Below, one piece after another: positions 2,943-37,183 of a DNA stretch of 64,000 nt. The position numbers and the translations under genes were made by a program. Position 1 is the stretch's first letter. Each line of letters begins with the position of its first letter. Under the pieces are notes generated by a model. It searched no databases. It had not been told where the DNA came from and saw nothing but the letters and a program-made list of their open reading frames with translations. Source of the stretch: Candidatus Poribacteria bacterium (GTDB lineage Bacteria > Poribacteria > WGA-4E > WGA-3G); contig OZ246958.1 of assembly GCA_965232115.1 (NCBI GenBank), forward strand, positions 4,098,841 to 4,162,840, in the 5' to 3' direction.

Positions 2943-3806
2943 TCACCGCTTGAGTGTGTTGACAATTTCTTCGTTGCCCTCACGCAATGCCATGTCGAGA
3001 GGCATCTCTCCTCCATAGGGTTGAAACACAACTCTCTTGAATTCACGTAGGGGCCAGACCAGTGATGTGACCTCATCTGTCCATTCGGTGAACTGTTTGG
3101 GACGACACATTCGACTGACTGTTTTCAGCGATGGGTCGGCACCGTGGTCCAACAATAGCCGAACCATCCGCAGATTGCCCAACCGGGCGGCGAAATGTAG
3201 CGGTGTTTCCTTACCGTATTCAACGAAATGCTCGTTATCCATGATGGGTTCTTCATCAAGTCCGCTCAGTGCCTGTGCATTGACATCCGCGCCTGATTTA
3301 ATCAGGATATAGGCTTGTGCAAGATGCGTATCGTCATCGTGCCGGGATTGCACATGGAGTACGGTTTCGCCGTTGTAGGGCCATGCGAAATTCGGATCCA
3401 ATCCGTTTTCCACCATGAGTAGAAAGGAATCGAAGTTGGTGACACCAACACCGTGAAACCCAAGATAGGAGGGTTGATTGACCTCGGTTCCCTGACTGAT
3501 GAGATACCGGTTAATCTCGTAATCGGGGCTTGGCCAATGCGTGCCAAGGTCACTGTTGTTTACATCGGCACCTGCCTCTATAAGTGCCTTGACTTTATCG
3601 AGATCTTTGATCTTAATGCTTGCAGTAAAGAGCGGTGATGTTCGATTCACTTTTACGTTTACGAGTTCCGGTGCTTCAGCAAGCATTTGTCGAACTGTCT
3701 CTGCATCTGCTGTTTCAAATTCTGCACGCCAGCGTTCAATGTATTTTGGGTTCATTTCATCTCCGTGTGATGATAGACCTATTTGATCTGTTAGCATTTT
3801 TATCAA
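2943..3806 (-). CDS. ankyrin-repeat protein
   Basis: Canonical ANK repeat TPLHFAARLGNLRMVRLLLDHGADP plus several more degenerate copies (GADVN...). Confidence 0.8.
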   Translation of the reverse strand: MIKMLTDQIGLSSHGDEMNPKYIERWRAEFETADAETVRQMLAEAPELVNVKVNRTSPLFTASIKIKDLDKVKALIEAGADVNNSDLGTHWPSPDYEINRYLISQGTEVNQPSYLGFHGVGVTNFDSFLLMVENGLDPNFAWPYNGETVLHVQSRHDDDTHLAQAYILIKSGADVNAQALSGLDEEPIMDNEHFVEYGKETPLHFAARLGNLRMVRLLLDHGADPSLKTVSRMCRPKQFTEWTDEVTSLVWPLREFKRVVFQPYGGEMPLDMALREGNEEIVNTLKR

Positions 3807-34831: not shown

Positions 34832-34835
34832 TCTA

Positions 34836-35519
34836 TCAGTACGATTTTACTCGCAGCATCTCATTCCCTGTTTTTTGGAAGTGATACGGGACGCGCGCAA
34901 CCGAGCACGTAATCCCATCTTTTTCAAGTTCGTGGATAACGGGTGATAAGAAAGGGGAAGGGTTGCTGTTGACATCAACAATGGGGAAAATTCTCACCTC
35001 GGTTCCGATACGAAGTAGTTCTCGCACGGCATCAAGATGAAACGTCAGATCTCTGTTTGCGGAGTAGAAAAAGAGGAAATGTGCGGAGAGTACGAGGTCG
35101 AAATGGCGATCAGGAAAGGGTAAATTCGGGAGTGATGCGTTGATATAGCGTTCCTGTTGCTTGCCTCTCTCAAAATCTCGGCAGAACTCATCCATTGCCT
35201 GCATCCTGACCTCTGACAACTCATTAACAGACGAGAATCTTGTCCAGACGAATTTATCCTGATTCCGGCGGGCTTGGGCGATGACATCCTCTTGGGTTTC
35301 CTGAATGCGTTGGCGCAATTCCGCCTCTGAATACCGGTAGATTGGGTCTATGGAGATTATCGGCGTGCGACGTTGGTACATCCGAAAATTGAACGACGCG
35401 GGACCATCACCTACGCCTACGATGTCCCGCGTCAAGTCTTCTTCAGAGAGGTTAAACATATCAAGATATTCGTCGAACGACCTACCCCACGGCACGATGT
35501 CTTTGTAATGGAAATCCAT
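34836..35519 (-). CDS. class I SAM-dependent methyltransferase
   Basis: VGVGDGPASF motif I, with an acidic post-I residue. Confidence 0.55.
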   Translation of the reverse strand: MDFHYKDIVPWGRSFDEYLDMFNLSEEDLTRDIVGVGDGPASFNFRMYQRRTPIISIDPIYRYSEAELRQRIQETQEDVIAQARRNQDKFVWTRFSSVNELSEVRMQAMDEFCRDFERGKQQERYINASLPNLPFPDRHFDLVLSAHFLFFYSANRDLTFHLDAVRELLRIGTEVRIFPIVDVNSNPSPFLSPVIHELEKDGITCSVARVPYHFQKTGNEMLRVKSY

Positions 35520-35608
35520 CCGGTGTCCTTAGAATTGTGTTGTTATCCGGAAAAAATTAACGTATAATGTTTATCAAAATAGCGAACGTTGTGGAGGACT
35601 TTTTTAAA

Positions 35609-35833
35609 ATGCGTAGAATTGAAGAGATAACCGCATCATTACCGGCGCTGACAACCGCTGAGTTACATCATATTGAGCGGGTTATTCGTGATTTATATCG
35701 GGTGCGCCACGAGCCTGTCATCTACGATGATGACTACGGCATCTGGACAGAATACGATCAGGTATCAACGGCATCAGCAGTTTTTGAACTCTTTGATAAA
35801 ATAGAAAAACAAGAGGACAATACGAATGCCTAA
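35609..35833 (+). CDS. putative antitoxin of the MazF-like toxin (non-canonical, acidic C-terminus)
   Basis: 75-aa ORF with a GGAGGA RBS. Overlaps the toxin start by 8 nt (ATGCCTAA). Very acidic C-terminus (YDDDYGIWTEYDQ...EKQEDNTNA). Confidence 0.5.
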   Translation: MRRIEEITASLPALTTAELHHIERVIRDLYRVRHEPVIYDDDYGIWTEYDQVSTASAVFELFDKIEKQEDNTNA

Positions 35834-36143
35834 GCGCGGTGAAATCTGGTTAGCCGACCTTGGCGTGGCGGCAAAGACACGCCCTGTTCTGGTACTCAGC
35901 GTCCCTTTTTCAGATTCTGATTACGCGCTAATTACTGTCGTACCGCACACGACAAGTTCAAGAAGGTCCAATTTTGAAGTAAACCTTTCTGTGGCTGCTT
36001 TAAGACCCGGTGCTTTCAATGTTCAAGGACTGATGGCTGTCCCACCCGCCAAGTTCATTCGCAAACTCGGAGCATTACGGTCTGCGCAAATGGAACAGGT
36101 CGCGGCTAGAGTAAAAAAGTGGCTCGGATTTTCATCCAATTAA
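35826..36143 (+). CDS. PemK/MazF-family type II toxin (endoribonuclease)
   Basis: Hallmark N-terminus PKRGEIWLADLG...KTRPVLVLS. 105 aa. Confidence 0.8.
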   Translation: MPKRGEIWLADLGVAAKTRPVLVLSVPFSDSDYALITVVPHTTSSRRSNFEVNLSVAALRPGAFNVQGLMAVPPAKFIRKLGALRSAQMEQVAARVKKWLGFSSN

Positions 36144-37183
36144 CCAGCAGCCCCGATCTCAACTTCCTGCAAAACTGCTGCTGCCCGTTGTGCCAACTCA
36201 GTTGTAGTATCTCGCTTGAGAGCCCGATTTAAGTGTAAGATGGCGCGTTCATCTCCATCTCTTGCGAGTTCCAAAGCCTCCTCAAATCCTTTGTTTCCGT
36301 AACTGAAATCCCTTGCGATAACCGTCAAGTCAAGATCCTTCCAATAATACTGCAGTTCATCAGATTTCCAATTCTCATAGACATGTTCCCACGTAAGGGA
36401 GTTGAAAATATTCAGGTGCGGTTCAAGCATGTGCTCAGCGATCGGGTCATCGACAGCCTGATAGCGGTTGTCGAGCGACACGCGAAGTCGATCTTCAGTC
36501 AAATTCGGCAGTGCCTTATGGATCGTCAAAGCTGGGAAGATGAGCGTATCGCCAACTTCATAGTTCGTGGAGTGCCATTCACCCGACAATTCGTCCTCAT
36601 TAACGCAGAGACTGCCAGCACCGAGCGAAAAGTGGTGTTCCATGACCTTGTTGATCTTATGTGATCCGGGTAGGACTGCTAAGCCACCTAACTCAATCGG
36701 ACAATCTCCGACGGGTGCCCAACAGGTATAGGTCTGGAAATTGCCTTGGAAGTGGACGAAATCTTGATGGATCGGGGTTGTATGTGCCGTGTACTTCGGG
36801 AACCAGAGGCGCGCAATCTTTTGCGGATGCGGTAGCACCTCTCTACCGACAATCTTTTCCACCATATCGACGACTTCGTGCCAGTGACCGGAACGGTGGA
36901 ACGCTTCTAATTTATAGACTTCATGGTACACGTCTGTATATTCGGGATCGCCTTCGGTACATTGGGTCGAAATATCAGCGATGCCGTCCATCGGGTCGGT
37001 CCCCGCGACGAGCCAACCGCCCTTCTGCATTGTCGTTAGCATCTCTCGCCGTAACGCCCAGAGTTTGTCGGGATCTTGTAGGCACTTGAAGAAGAGATAC
37101 CCTTCTTCTGAGATCCGGTGCCGCAACTCTTCTGGATCGTTCATCGCATCGTTGGATATGCGAAGTTCTTTTATTTTTTCCAT
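36140..37183 (-). CDS. phytanoyl-CoA dioxygenase (PhyH) family protein
   Basis: PIHQDFVHF motif. The stop overlaps the toxin gene end on the opposite strand. Confidence 0.7.
   Translation of the reverse strand: MEKIKELRISNDAMNDPEELRHRISEEGYLFFKCLQDPDKLWALRREMLTTMQKGGWLVAGTDPMDGIADISTQCTEGDPEYTDVYHEVYKLEAFHRSGHWHEVVDMVEKIVGREVLPHPQKIARLWFPKYTAHTTPIHQDFVHFQGNFQTYTCWAPVGDCPIELGGLAVLPGSHKINKVMEHHFSLGAGSLCVNEDELSGEWHSTNYEVGDTLIFPALTIHKALPNLTEDRLRVSLDNRYQAVDDPIAEHMLEPHLNIFNSLTWEHVYENWKSDELQYYWKDLDLTVIARDFSYGNKGFEEALELARDGDERAILHLNRALKRDTTTELAQRAAAVLQEVEIGAAG

What the first reader, a model, noticed from the sequence alone, without database searches (positions are those of the whole stretch)
35609..36143. 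MazF/PemK toxin paired with an unclassified acidic antitoxin
The toxin (35826-36143) has the unmistakable PemK/MazF N-terminus RGEIWLADLG...TRPVLVLS. The upstream gene (35609-35833) overlaps it by 8 nt. It encodes a 75-aa protein with a strongly acidic C-terminus. To my eye it does not match MazE/AbrB, RHH, Phd/YefM or HTH antitoxin patterns, for example MRRIEEITASLPALTTAELHHIERVIRDL. It could be an undescribed antitoxin family. The module sits between a methyltransferase gene and a PhyH gene.
Basis: partly seen in the sequence, partly recalled or inferred. Interest (0 to 1): 0.55.

Follow-up and report, generated by a model that had tools for sequence, protein, structure and literature searches.

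The report
MazF toxin with an unclassified antitoxin
This is a real two-gene toxin-antitoxin module in a sponge-symbiont (Poribacteria) genome: the toxin is an ordinary MazF/PemK RNase, and its small acidic partner belongs to a conserved protein family that no public library names and whose predicted fold matches no solved structure.

Summary
ORF A (35609-35833, 74 aa rather than 75) overlaps ORF T (35826-36143, 105 aa) by 8 nt. T is a clear PemK/MazF toxin (Pfam 2e-14); the nearest solved structure is M. tuberculosis MazF7.

A matches no family in Pfam, NCBIfam, PHROGs, PADLOC or PDB, whether searched alone or as 46 diverse relatives. An exhaustive HMM search of 1.84 billion proteins finds only 94 clusters. 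Every hit that carries a source name is called a hypothetical protein.

The A-T pairing is conserved down to 30-45% identity:
- 15 of 38 Poribacteria genome loci and 46 of 80 metagenome loci have an intact pair.
- Most of the rest carry toxin remnants.
- Start and stop codons overlap by 4-23 nt in nearly all pairs.
- Both genes are under purifying selection (dN/dS about 0.12).

Verdict: a canonical type II MazF module with an undescribed antitoxin family, so a new variant of a known kind. Neutralisation and the binding mode are inferred, not shown.

Side findings:
- Antitoxins that lost their toxin by deletion are still under selection.
- The module repeatedly sits inside amino-acid biosynthesis gene clusters (hom-thrC, argH).

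The parts
35540..35568 (+). Sigma-70-like promoter, TTGTTA-17 nt-TATAAT
   Evidence: 10 of 12 consensus match. The same element is present in the 97%-identical relative L001, and a similar one (TTGATT-17-TAAAAT) is in L007, L009 and L010. This is a consensus match only; function is not shown.
35593..35598 (+). Shine-Dalgarno GGAGGA, 10 nt before the A start codon
   Evidence: Read directly from the sequence. GGAGG is conserved at the same place in Poribacteria loci.
35609..35833 (+). Antitoxin candidate A, 74 aa, acidic (pI 4.6); member of an unnamed family
   Evidence: 72 close clusters; 94 clusters at 50% identity in 1.84 billion proteins; all named hits are hypothetical proteins; dN/dS 0.12.
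35618..35704 (+). A residues 4-32: predicted helical hairpin (alpha1 4-13, alpha2 16-32); proposed dimerisation or regulatory module
   Evidence: AlphaFold2 model, pLDDT 78-91 in this region. There is a marginal profile match to the L7/L12 N-terminal dimerisation hairpin (E 0.02). The same hairpin is shared with the hairpin-less antitoxin of L135.
35714..35764 (+). A residues 36-52, PVIYDDDYGIWTEYDQV: the most conserved block, a predicted beta-hairpin with 5 acidic and no basic residues
   Evidence: Y39, D41, Y43, G44, W46, D50 and Q51 are invariant in close relatives. D41 and G44 are invariant across the whole family. Strands 38-41 and 44-47 are predicted.
35750..35830 (+). A residues 48-74: long amphipathic helix alpha3 (F59, F62, D63, E66) plus acidic tail; proposed toxin-binding helix
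   Evidence: Helix 48-72 is predicted. The [AV]F-x-x-[YFLM]D-x-x-E pattern is kept across subfamilies and in the L135 variant. A binding role is inferred by analogy with MazE C-termini.
35826..35833 (+). 8-nt overlap of the A stop and T start (ATGCCTAA), implying translational coupling
   Evidence: The T start overlaps the A stop by 4, 8, 14, 20 or 23 nt in nearly all of the 59 pairs.
35826..36143 (+). Toxin T, 105 aa, PemK/MazF endoribonuclease fold, basic (pI 11)
   Evidence: Pfam PF02452 at 2e-14. PDB MazF7 5wyg at 1e-6 alone and 8e-10 with a profile; MazF9, MazF6, MazF4 and EndoA also match. Public records name it a PemK/MazF family toxin. dN/dS 0.125.
35880..35882 (+). T Arg19 (in AKTRPVLV), invariant; aligns with the conserved Arg-Pro of MazF7 and MazF9
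   Evidence: Invariant K17, R19 and P20 in 28 toxins. A catalytic role is inferred from knowledge of MazF, not tested here.
35949..35954 (+). T Thr42-Thr43 (VVPHTTS), conserved; corresponds to the Ser/Thr of the MazF active-site region
   Evidence: P40 and T42 are invariant. Alignment to MazF7 and MazF9 (vvPvsSS, vvPvTSN) is.

Best explanation
This is a canonical two-gene type II toxin-antitoxin operon. One promoter, at 35540-35568, drives a translationally coupled pair.

T is a MazF/PemK sequence-specific endoribonuclease that arrests growth by cutting RNA. A is its cognate protein antitoxin, and it belongs to a previously unnamed family with a predicted alpha-alpha-beta-hairpin-alpha architecture.

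Proposed mechanism, by step:
1. A binds the basic MazF dimer through its acidic C-terminal half. This comprises the invariant acidic and aromatic hairpin (YDDxYGxWTExDQ) and the amphipathic helix alpha3 with its acidic tail.
2. That binding occupies or occludes the RNA-binding groove, as the C-termini of MazE proteins do.
3. The N-terminal helical hairpin serves dimerisation and possibly operator binding.

Shown here: the identity of the toxin, the existence and conservation of the A family, its obligate genomic coupling to this MazF clade, purifying selection on both genes, and charge complementarity.

Inferred: neutralisation, the binding surface, autoregulation, and the lability of A.
For: Toxin identity rests.

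The A family is real and specific:
- 72 close clusters.
- 94 clusters at 50% identity from an exhaustive search.
- 143 hits with a profile.

The coupling of A and T is conserved:
- Of 38 Poribacteria genome loci, 15 have an intact A+T pair, 5 have a disrupted T, 1 is ambiguous because of an assembly gap, and 17 have T deleted.
- Of 80 metagenome loci, 46 are intact, 20 are disrupted, 5 are cut by a contig end, 5 lack T, and 4 give no information.
- Members only 37-43% identical (P0081, P0089, P0097) are still followed directly by a 104-aa PemK gene.
- Start and stop codons overlap in nearly all of the 59 unique pairs.
- Pairwise divergence of A and T is correlated (r = 0.81).

Selection: dN/dS is 0.12 for A and 0.125 for T.

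A is never found with an intact T upstream or with a different toxin; when one partner is missing, it is T. That asymmetry is what is expected if A is the antidote.

Charge: A is -8 and T is +7.6.

Structure: the model has pLDDT 84.6, with a confident hairpin and alpha3.

GC content of the module (0.47) equals that of the window (0.48), and there is a single copy in the window.
Against: - There is no direct evidence of binding or neutralisation.
- No convincing operator palindrome was found upstream. In one clade the module starts about 20 nt after the stop codon of hom, leaving no room for a promoter or operator of its own.
- A relative with the same N-terminal hairpin and alpha3-like motif lacks the beta-hairpin altogether (L135). 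The hairpin therefore cannot be the only determinant of neutralisation.
- Antitoxins that have lost their toxin stay under purifying selection (dN/dS 0.16), which hints at a function beyond neutralising the adjacent toxin.
Confidence: 0.8

Rival explanations
1. A is not a new family but a very divergent member of a known antitoxin family. One candidate is a Phd/YefM-like protein that has lost its first strand. Another is a relative of the small helical 'addiction module component' antitoxins (Pfam PF09720, TIGR02574), whose N-termini look similar by eye.
For: - The order helix, then Pro-strand, Gly turn, strand, then helix resembles the Phd/YefM core.
- The N-terminal pattern EIExALxxLxxxEL recalls PF09720-type antitoxins. 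This rests on my recollection, not on a test.
Against: - hmmscan of 46 diverse members, plus two neighbouring variants, against Pfam and NCBIfam gave no antitoxin family even at E up to 1-10.
- hhalign of the A profile against a YefM/Phd profile gave probability 0.3%.
- All fold matches are below significance.
- AlphaFold predicts no N-terminal strand.
Confidence: 0.12
2. A has a primary function other than neutralising T, for example as a small regulator of the neighbouring biosynthetic genes. On this reading T is controlled otherwise or is a passenger.
For: - Toxin-less A genes persist under purifying selection across substantial divergence (dN/dS 0.16, dS about 0.9).
- They sit 6 nt upstream of argH in 30 of 38 Poribacteria loci.
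- Another clade sits between hom and thrC.
Against: - Wherever T exists it is immediately downstream of, and overlapping, A.
- No intact T was seen without A in the loci examined.
- The charge complementarity and size are typical of antitoxins.
- Retention of orphan antitoxins is a known outcome of TA decay and does not require a new function.
Confidence: 0.05
3. The module in this window is an inactive remnant.
For: Toxin genes of this family are very often disrupted or deleted: 22 of 38 Poribacteria loci and 25 of 71 informative metagenome loci.
Against: - In the window both ORFs are full length.
- All 16 invariant toxin positions are intact.
- The promoter, SD and overlap are intact.
- The 97%/94%-identical pair in L001 is also intact.
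Confidence: 0.03

Closest known systems
E. coli MazE-MazF (and Kis-Kid, PemI-PemK, ChpBI-ChpBK)
   Same: - The gene order is antitoxin first, and the genes overlap.
- The toxin has the same PemK/MazF fold family.
- The antitoxin is small and acidic, and the toxin is basic.
- Acidic and aromatic residues, including Trp, occur in the part of the antitoxin proposed to bind the toxin. In MazE this feature is known from established structural work that I recall, not from anything tested here.
   Different: MazE, PemI and Kis use an AbrB/SpoVT swapped-hairpin N-terminal DNA-binding domain (Pfam PF04014). A has no such match and is predicted to be mainly helical.
M. tuberculosis MazEF7, MazEF9, MazEF4 and B. 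subtilis MazE-EndoA (RHH-type MazE)
   Same: - These are the closest solved relatives of the toxin: MazF7 8e-10, MazF9 2e-7, MazF4 1e-5, EndoA 9e-5.
- Their antitoxins are also mutually unrecognisable by sequence, according to PMC7472061.
   Different: - None of the antitoxin chains of these PDB entries is hit by A profiles, even at E up to 10.
- RHH antitoxins begin with a beta-strand, whereas A begins with a helix.
- The toxin here has a shorter beta1-beta2 loop than MazF7 (alignment).
XF1863-type antitoxins of MazF (Makarova et al. 2009, PMC2701414)
   Same: This is a precedent for a MazF clade partnered with a small protein that fits no characterised antitoxin family.
   Different: XF1863 proteins are described as strand-helix-helix (RHH-like) and occur mainly in Proteobacteria and Chlorobi/Bacteroidetes. 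A is helix-helix-hairpin-helix and occurs in Poribacteria, Verrucomicrobia, Latescibacteria and soil metagenomes. No direct sequence comparison was made.
Phd/YefM antitoxins
   Same: - Both are small.
- Both have a beta-hairpin followed by a helix in the middle.
- Both have a C-terminal toxin-binding helix.
   Different: A has no N-terminal strand, no Pfam PF02604 hit and an hhalign probability of 0.3%.

Membership tests
Type II toxin-antitoxin system, MazF/PemK toxin class | Toxin with the PemK/MazF domain | tested here: met
   PF02452 at 2e-14 over its full length. PDB MazF7, MazF9, MazF6, MazF4 and EndoA match.
Type II toxin-antitoxin system, MazF/PemK toxin class | Small protein gene immediately upstream, co-oriented, overlapping or abutting the toxin gene | tested here: met
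   8-nt overlap in the window. Overlaps of 4-23 nt occur in nearly all of the 59 pairs.
Type II toxin-antitoxin system, MazF/PemK toxin class | The two genes are conserved as a pair across different genomic contexts | tested here: met
   61 intact pairs in 118 loci. Contexts include GNAT/PhyH, argH, hom-thrC, cas1, hemN and lysC. Divergence of A and T is correlated, r = 0.81.
Type II toxin-antitoxin system, MazF/PemK toxin class | The antitoxin binds and neutralises the toxin | not testable with these tools
Only charge complementarity is available.
Type II toxin-antitoxin system, MazF/PemK toxin class | The antitoxin, or the complex, represses its own promoter through a DNA-binding domain | tested here: inconclusive
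   A promoter-like site was found, but there is no clear operator repeat. No known DNA-binding domain is present in A.
MazE/PemI/Kis (AbrB/SpoVT-like, Pfam PF04014) | HMM match to the family and a beta-rich swapped-hairpin N-terminal domain | tested here: not met
   No hit for A or for 46 relatives at E up to 1. The model is helical at the N-terminus.
Ribbon-helix-helix antitoxins (RHH; includes B. subtilis and several M. tuberculosis MazE) | An N-terminal beta-strand followed by two helices, and an HMM match | tested here: not met
Phd/YefM (Pfam PF02604) | HMM or profile similarity and a beta-alpha-beta-beta-alpha core with an N-terminal strand | tested here: not met
   No Pfam hit. hhalign against a four-sequence YefM/Phd profile gave 0.3%; that profile was shallow. 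Foldseek against YefM gave E 3.8.
HTH/Xre antitoxins | A helix-turn-helix domain match | tested here: not met
XF1863-like MazF antitoxins (Makarova 2009) | A strand-helix-helix secondary structure and sequence similarity to XF1863 or the RSF1010 F protein | tested here: not met
   The secondary-structure pattern differs (against the description read). Direct sequence comparison with XF1863 was not done.
PF09720 / TIGR02574 'putative addiction module component' | An HMM match | tested here: not met
   No hit in Pfam or NCBIfam for 46 members, or for the L135 variant, at E up to 1-10. The resemblance is by eye only.

The most novel reading that the evidence does not exclude
The A family is a new antitoxin fold with a second, toxin-independent job.

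After precise deletion of the toxin gene, the antitoxin reading frame is kept under purifying selection directly in front of argH. In other lineages the intact pair is wedged between hom and thrC or after lysC. This would fit a small protein that ties expression of amino-acid biosynthesis operons to control of a MazF RNase, or that protects against related toxins arriving in trans.
Probability: 0.12. Interest if true: 0.65.

Novelty: new variant of a known kind. Interest (0 to 1): 0.4.

Why it matters
MazF toxins are well understood, but their antitoxins are a patchwork of unrelated proteins. Annotation pipelines name only the toxin here and leave the partner as 'hypothetical'.

Defining this family would have three practical uses:
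- Several hundred orphan-looking MazF genes in Poribacteria, Verrucomicrobia and soil metagenomes could be annotated as complete modules.
- It adds a probably new small fold to the set of ways a MazF groove can be blocked.
- It offers a clean natural series (intact pair, frameshifted toxin, precise toxin deletion with retained antitoxin) for studying how TA modules decay.

It does not change the general picture of type II TA biology.

Tried and rejected
1. Co-folding. I built a 28-row paired alignment of toxin-linker-toxin-linker-antitoxin.
2. AFDB fold libraries were not available.
3. The first AlphaFold run, with only close homologues, gave pLDDT 70. Its Foldseek search was uninformative and was superseded.
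4. The marginal match of the N-terminus to the L7/L12 dimerisation hairpin (E 0.02) is treated as an analogy only.
5. I asked whether the small conserved ORF just upstream of A in many Poribacteria loci is a paralogue of A. hhalign gave probability 6%, so this was rejected.
6. The operator search found only an 8-nt direct repeat and weak inverted repeats, with nothing conserved across clades.
7. The alternative start at 35567 was rejected.
8. The apparent A-T fusion in L017 is an assembly gap of 13 N, not a real fusion.
9. P0166 (210 aa) is an over-extended N-terminus, not a fusion.
10. Literature searches for the motif and for Poribacteria TA systems found nothing relevant.

Full report
**Observation.** The + strand carries two overlapping ORFs. 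T runs from 35826 to 36143 and is 105 aa. The A stop and T start share 8 nt (ATGCCTAA). A promoter-like site (TTGTTA-17-TATAAT, 35540-35568, 10 of 12) and a GGAGGA box (35593-35598) precede A. The longer ORF from ATG 35567 would start inside the -10 box, and no homologue uses it. The module has the same GC content as the window (0.47 against 0.48) and is the only copy in the window.

**The toxin.** T matches Pfam PemK_toxin end to end (2e-14). Its closest solved relative is M. tuberculosis MazF7 (1e-6 alone, 8e-10 with a 28-sequence profile), followed by MazF9, MazF6, MazF4 and B. subtilis EndoA. Sixteen positions are invariant in the clade, including K17-x-R19-P20 and P40-x-T42. These align with the conserved Arg-Pro and Ser/Thr stretches of the solved MazFs, and all are intact in the window. 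Public records call close relatives 'type II toxin-antitoxin system PemK/MazF family toxin [Candidatus Poribacteria bacterium]'.

**The partner.** A has no match in Pfam, NCBIfam, PHROGs or PADLOC and none in PDB sequences. It is nevertheless a real family.
- A word-indexed search found 72 clusters at 64% identity or more, all 'hypothetical protein', from Poribacteria and one Latescibacteria MAG.
- An exhaustive HMM search of 1.84 billion representatives found 94 clusters at E of 1e-3 or better, 42 of them at 1e-10 or better.
- A profile search returned 143 proteins, again all unnamed and without Pfam domains, including a Verrucomicrobia MAG.
- Scanning 46 diverse members one by one against Pfam, NCBIfam and PHROGs gave no recurrent family.
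- Profiles of the family hit nothing meaningful in the PDB. The best result was a marginal match of residues 1-27 to the L7/L12 N-terminal dimerisation hairpin (E 0.02).

**Source organism.** A scan of one genome per species found 38 loci, all in Candidatus Poribacteria MAGs. The nearest (CAXXEU010000002.1) encodes A at 97% and T at 94% identity in the same gene neighbourhood. The window is therefore from a poribacterial sponge symbiont.

**Is A tied to T?** I classified loci with HMMs built from the two families.

| Set | Intact A+T | Toxin frameshifted or truncated | Toxin absent | Other |
|---|---|---|---|---|
| 38 Poribacteria genome loci | 15 | 5 | 17 | 1 interrupted by an assembly gap |
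| 80 metagenome loci (soil, peat, sediment) | 46 | 20 | 5 | 5 cut by the contig end, 4 too short to tell |

- Members only 37-43% identical to A are still followed directly by a 104-aa PemK gene.
- In 59 non-identical intact pairs the toxin start overlaps the antitoxin stop by 4, 8, 14, 20 or 23 nt in nearly all cases.
- Pairwise divergences of A and T are correlated (r = 0.81).
- Both genes are under purifying selection (median dN/dS 0.12 and 0.125).
- When one partner is missing it is always the toxin. This is the asymmetry expected if A is the antidote.
- A is acidic (pI 4.6, net -8) and T is basic (pI 11.0, net +7.6).

**Architecture of A.** With a 58-sequence alignment AlphaFold2 gives mean pLDDT 84.6. 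It predicts helix 4-13, helix 16-32, a beta-hairpin (38-41 and 44-47) and a long helix 48-72. A shallower alignment gave the same topology at pLDDT 70.
- The hairpin carries the family signature IYDDDYGIWTEYDQ. D41 and G44 are invariant across the whole family. Y39, Y43, W46, D50 and Q51 are invariant among close relatives. The segment holds five acidic and no basic residues.
- Helix 3 is amphipathic, with a conserved [AV]F-x-x-[YFLM]D-x-x-E pattern.
- Because YefM, RelJ and RelB appeared among these weak hits, and because helix, strand, turn, strand, helix resembles the Phd/YefM core, I built a YefM/Phd profile from PDB sequences. I compared it with the A profile, and hhalign probability was 0.3%.
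- The absence of an N-terminal strand argues against RHH, and the helical N-terminus argues against AbrB.
- Makarova et al. (PMC2701414) described another non-canonical MazF partner, XF1863. It is reported as strand-helix-helix, which does not fit A.

**Mechanism.** Shown here: a MazF toxin and a co-inherited, co-selected, overlapping, oppositely charged upstream protein.

Inferred: A neutralises T by placing its acidic hairpin and/or helix 3 plus tail in the RNA-binding groove of the MazF dimer. This is what the C-terminal segments of E. coli and B. subtilis MazE do (established structural knowledge, not tested here). The N-terminal hairpin would provide dimerisation and perhaps operator binding.

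Two observations bear on this model.
- A more distant toxin of the same clade (49% identical) is preceded by a 60-aa protein with the same N-terminal hairpin (E 2e-5 against the A profile) and a helix-3-like LFRSYDTEE. It has no beta-hairpin. The helices therefore look like the common core and the hairpin like an addition.
- Toxins 44-48% identical carry yet another unannotated 61-aa helical partner. This fits the known promiscuity of TA partnerships (PMC7472061; PMC10440598).

I found no convincing operator.

**Side findings.**
- The 67-aa toxin-less antitoxins of nine Poribacteria loci are precise in-frame deletion products. A codons 1-64 are joined to the last three codons of the toxin, and the 6-nt spacing to argH is unchanged. 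They remain under purifying selection (dN/dS 0.16 at dS about 0.9).
- Thirty of the 38 Poribacteria loci place A, or A-T, directly upstream of argininosuccinate lyase. The window copy and its close relatives are elsewhere.
- In 24 metagenome loci the pair is wedged between homoserine dehydrogenase and threonine synthase, starting about 20 nt after the hom stop codon. Other copies follow aspartate kinase or hemN, or precede cas1.

**Verdict.** This is an ordinary kind of system, a type II MazF module, with a partner from an undescribed family that probably has a new fold. New antitoxin families for MazF are expected rather than surprising, so interest is moderate. The retained orphan antitoxins and the recurrent placement in amino-acid biosynthesis clusters are the most intriguing loose ends.

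Noticed in passing
L005 4001-4204; L018, L019, L021, L022, L024, L028, L029, L033 (about 3001-3204); compared with L002 4001-4556: The 67-aa 'orphan' antitoxins are precise in-frame deletions that join A codon 64 to the last three codons of the toxin, keeping the 6-nt gap to argH. They are still under purifying selection (dN/dS 0.16), so the antitoxin is kept after the toxin is lost.
   Followed up: partly
L103 1190-4416 and 23 further loci (L047, L048, L084, L097, L099-L101, L108, L111, L112, L115-L118, L120, L122-L126, L129-L131): In a soil and peat clade the A-T pair sits between homoserine dehydrogenase and threonine synthase, starting about 20 nt after the hom stop codon. In 30 of 38 Poribacteria loci it sits 6 nt upstream of argininosuccinate lyase. 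L051 follows aspartate kinase. The module recurs inside or next to amino-acid biosynthesis operons.
   Followed up: partly
window 34834-35462: A 629-bp stretch holding most of the 227-aa methyltransferase-like ORF (34836-35519, - strand) is absent from the closest relative L001, where only the 5' end of that gene remains next to the antitoxin promoter.
   Followed up: partly
L133 1335-1833, L136 827-1325, L135 471-930: MazF toxins 44-49% identical to T have other unannotated partners. One is a 61-aa helical protein (MDLLVETLDARLREW...). Another is a 60-aa protein that shares the N-terminal hairpin and a helix-3-like motif of A but lacks the beta-hairpin. Neither has a Pfam or NCBIfam hit.
   Followed up: partly
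L005 3717-3965, L002 3717-3920 and about 20 other Poribacteria loci; also L002 6091-6721: A conserved 82-aa ORF (MRKMELQKQA...FGGVELEIPPRDPAREPPRFD) lies just upstream of A. It has no Pfam hit, is unrelated to A (hhalign 6%) and is frameshifted in some loci. A HigB_toxin gene with a 101-aa partner lies downstream of argH. The argH neighbourhood looks like a small TA island.
   Followed up: partly
L054, L058-L065, L070, L080 (40 nt upstream of the A start): In the 'GILYDDAYG' clade a CTTGCC or CTTGTC -35 box and a TAnnnT -10 box end only 6-10 nt before the start codon, which is often GTG. This suggests leaderless transcripts.
   Followed up: no
window 36140-36143: The 3' end of the toxin gene and the 3' end of the convergent PhyH gene overlap by 4 nt. 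No intrinsic terminator is predicted in 35400-36300.
   Followed up: no
L049 1868-3279: One distant A-T pair lies directly upstream of two cas1 gene fragments.
   Followed up: no
window 35793-35821: A second, weaker promoter-like site (TTGATA-17-GACAAT, 9 of 12) lies inside the 3' end of A, just before the toxin start. The count of such sites is not above the shuffled expectation.
   Followed up: no
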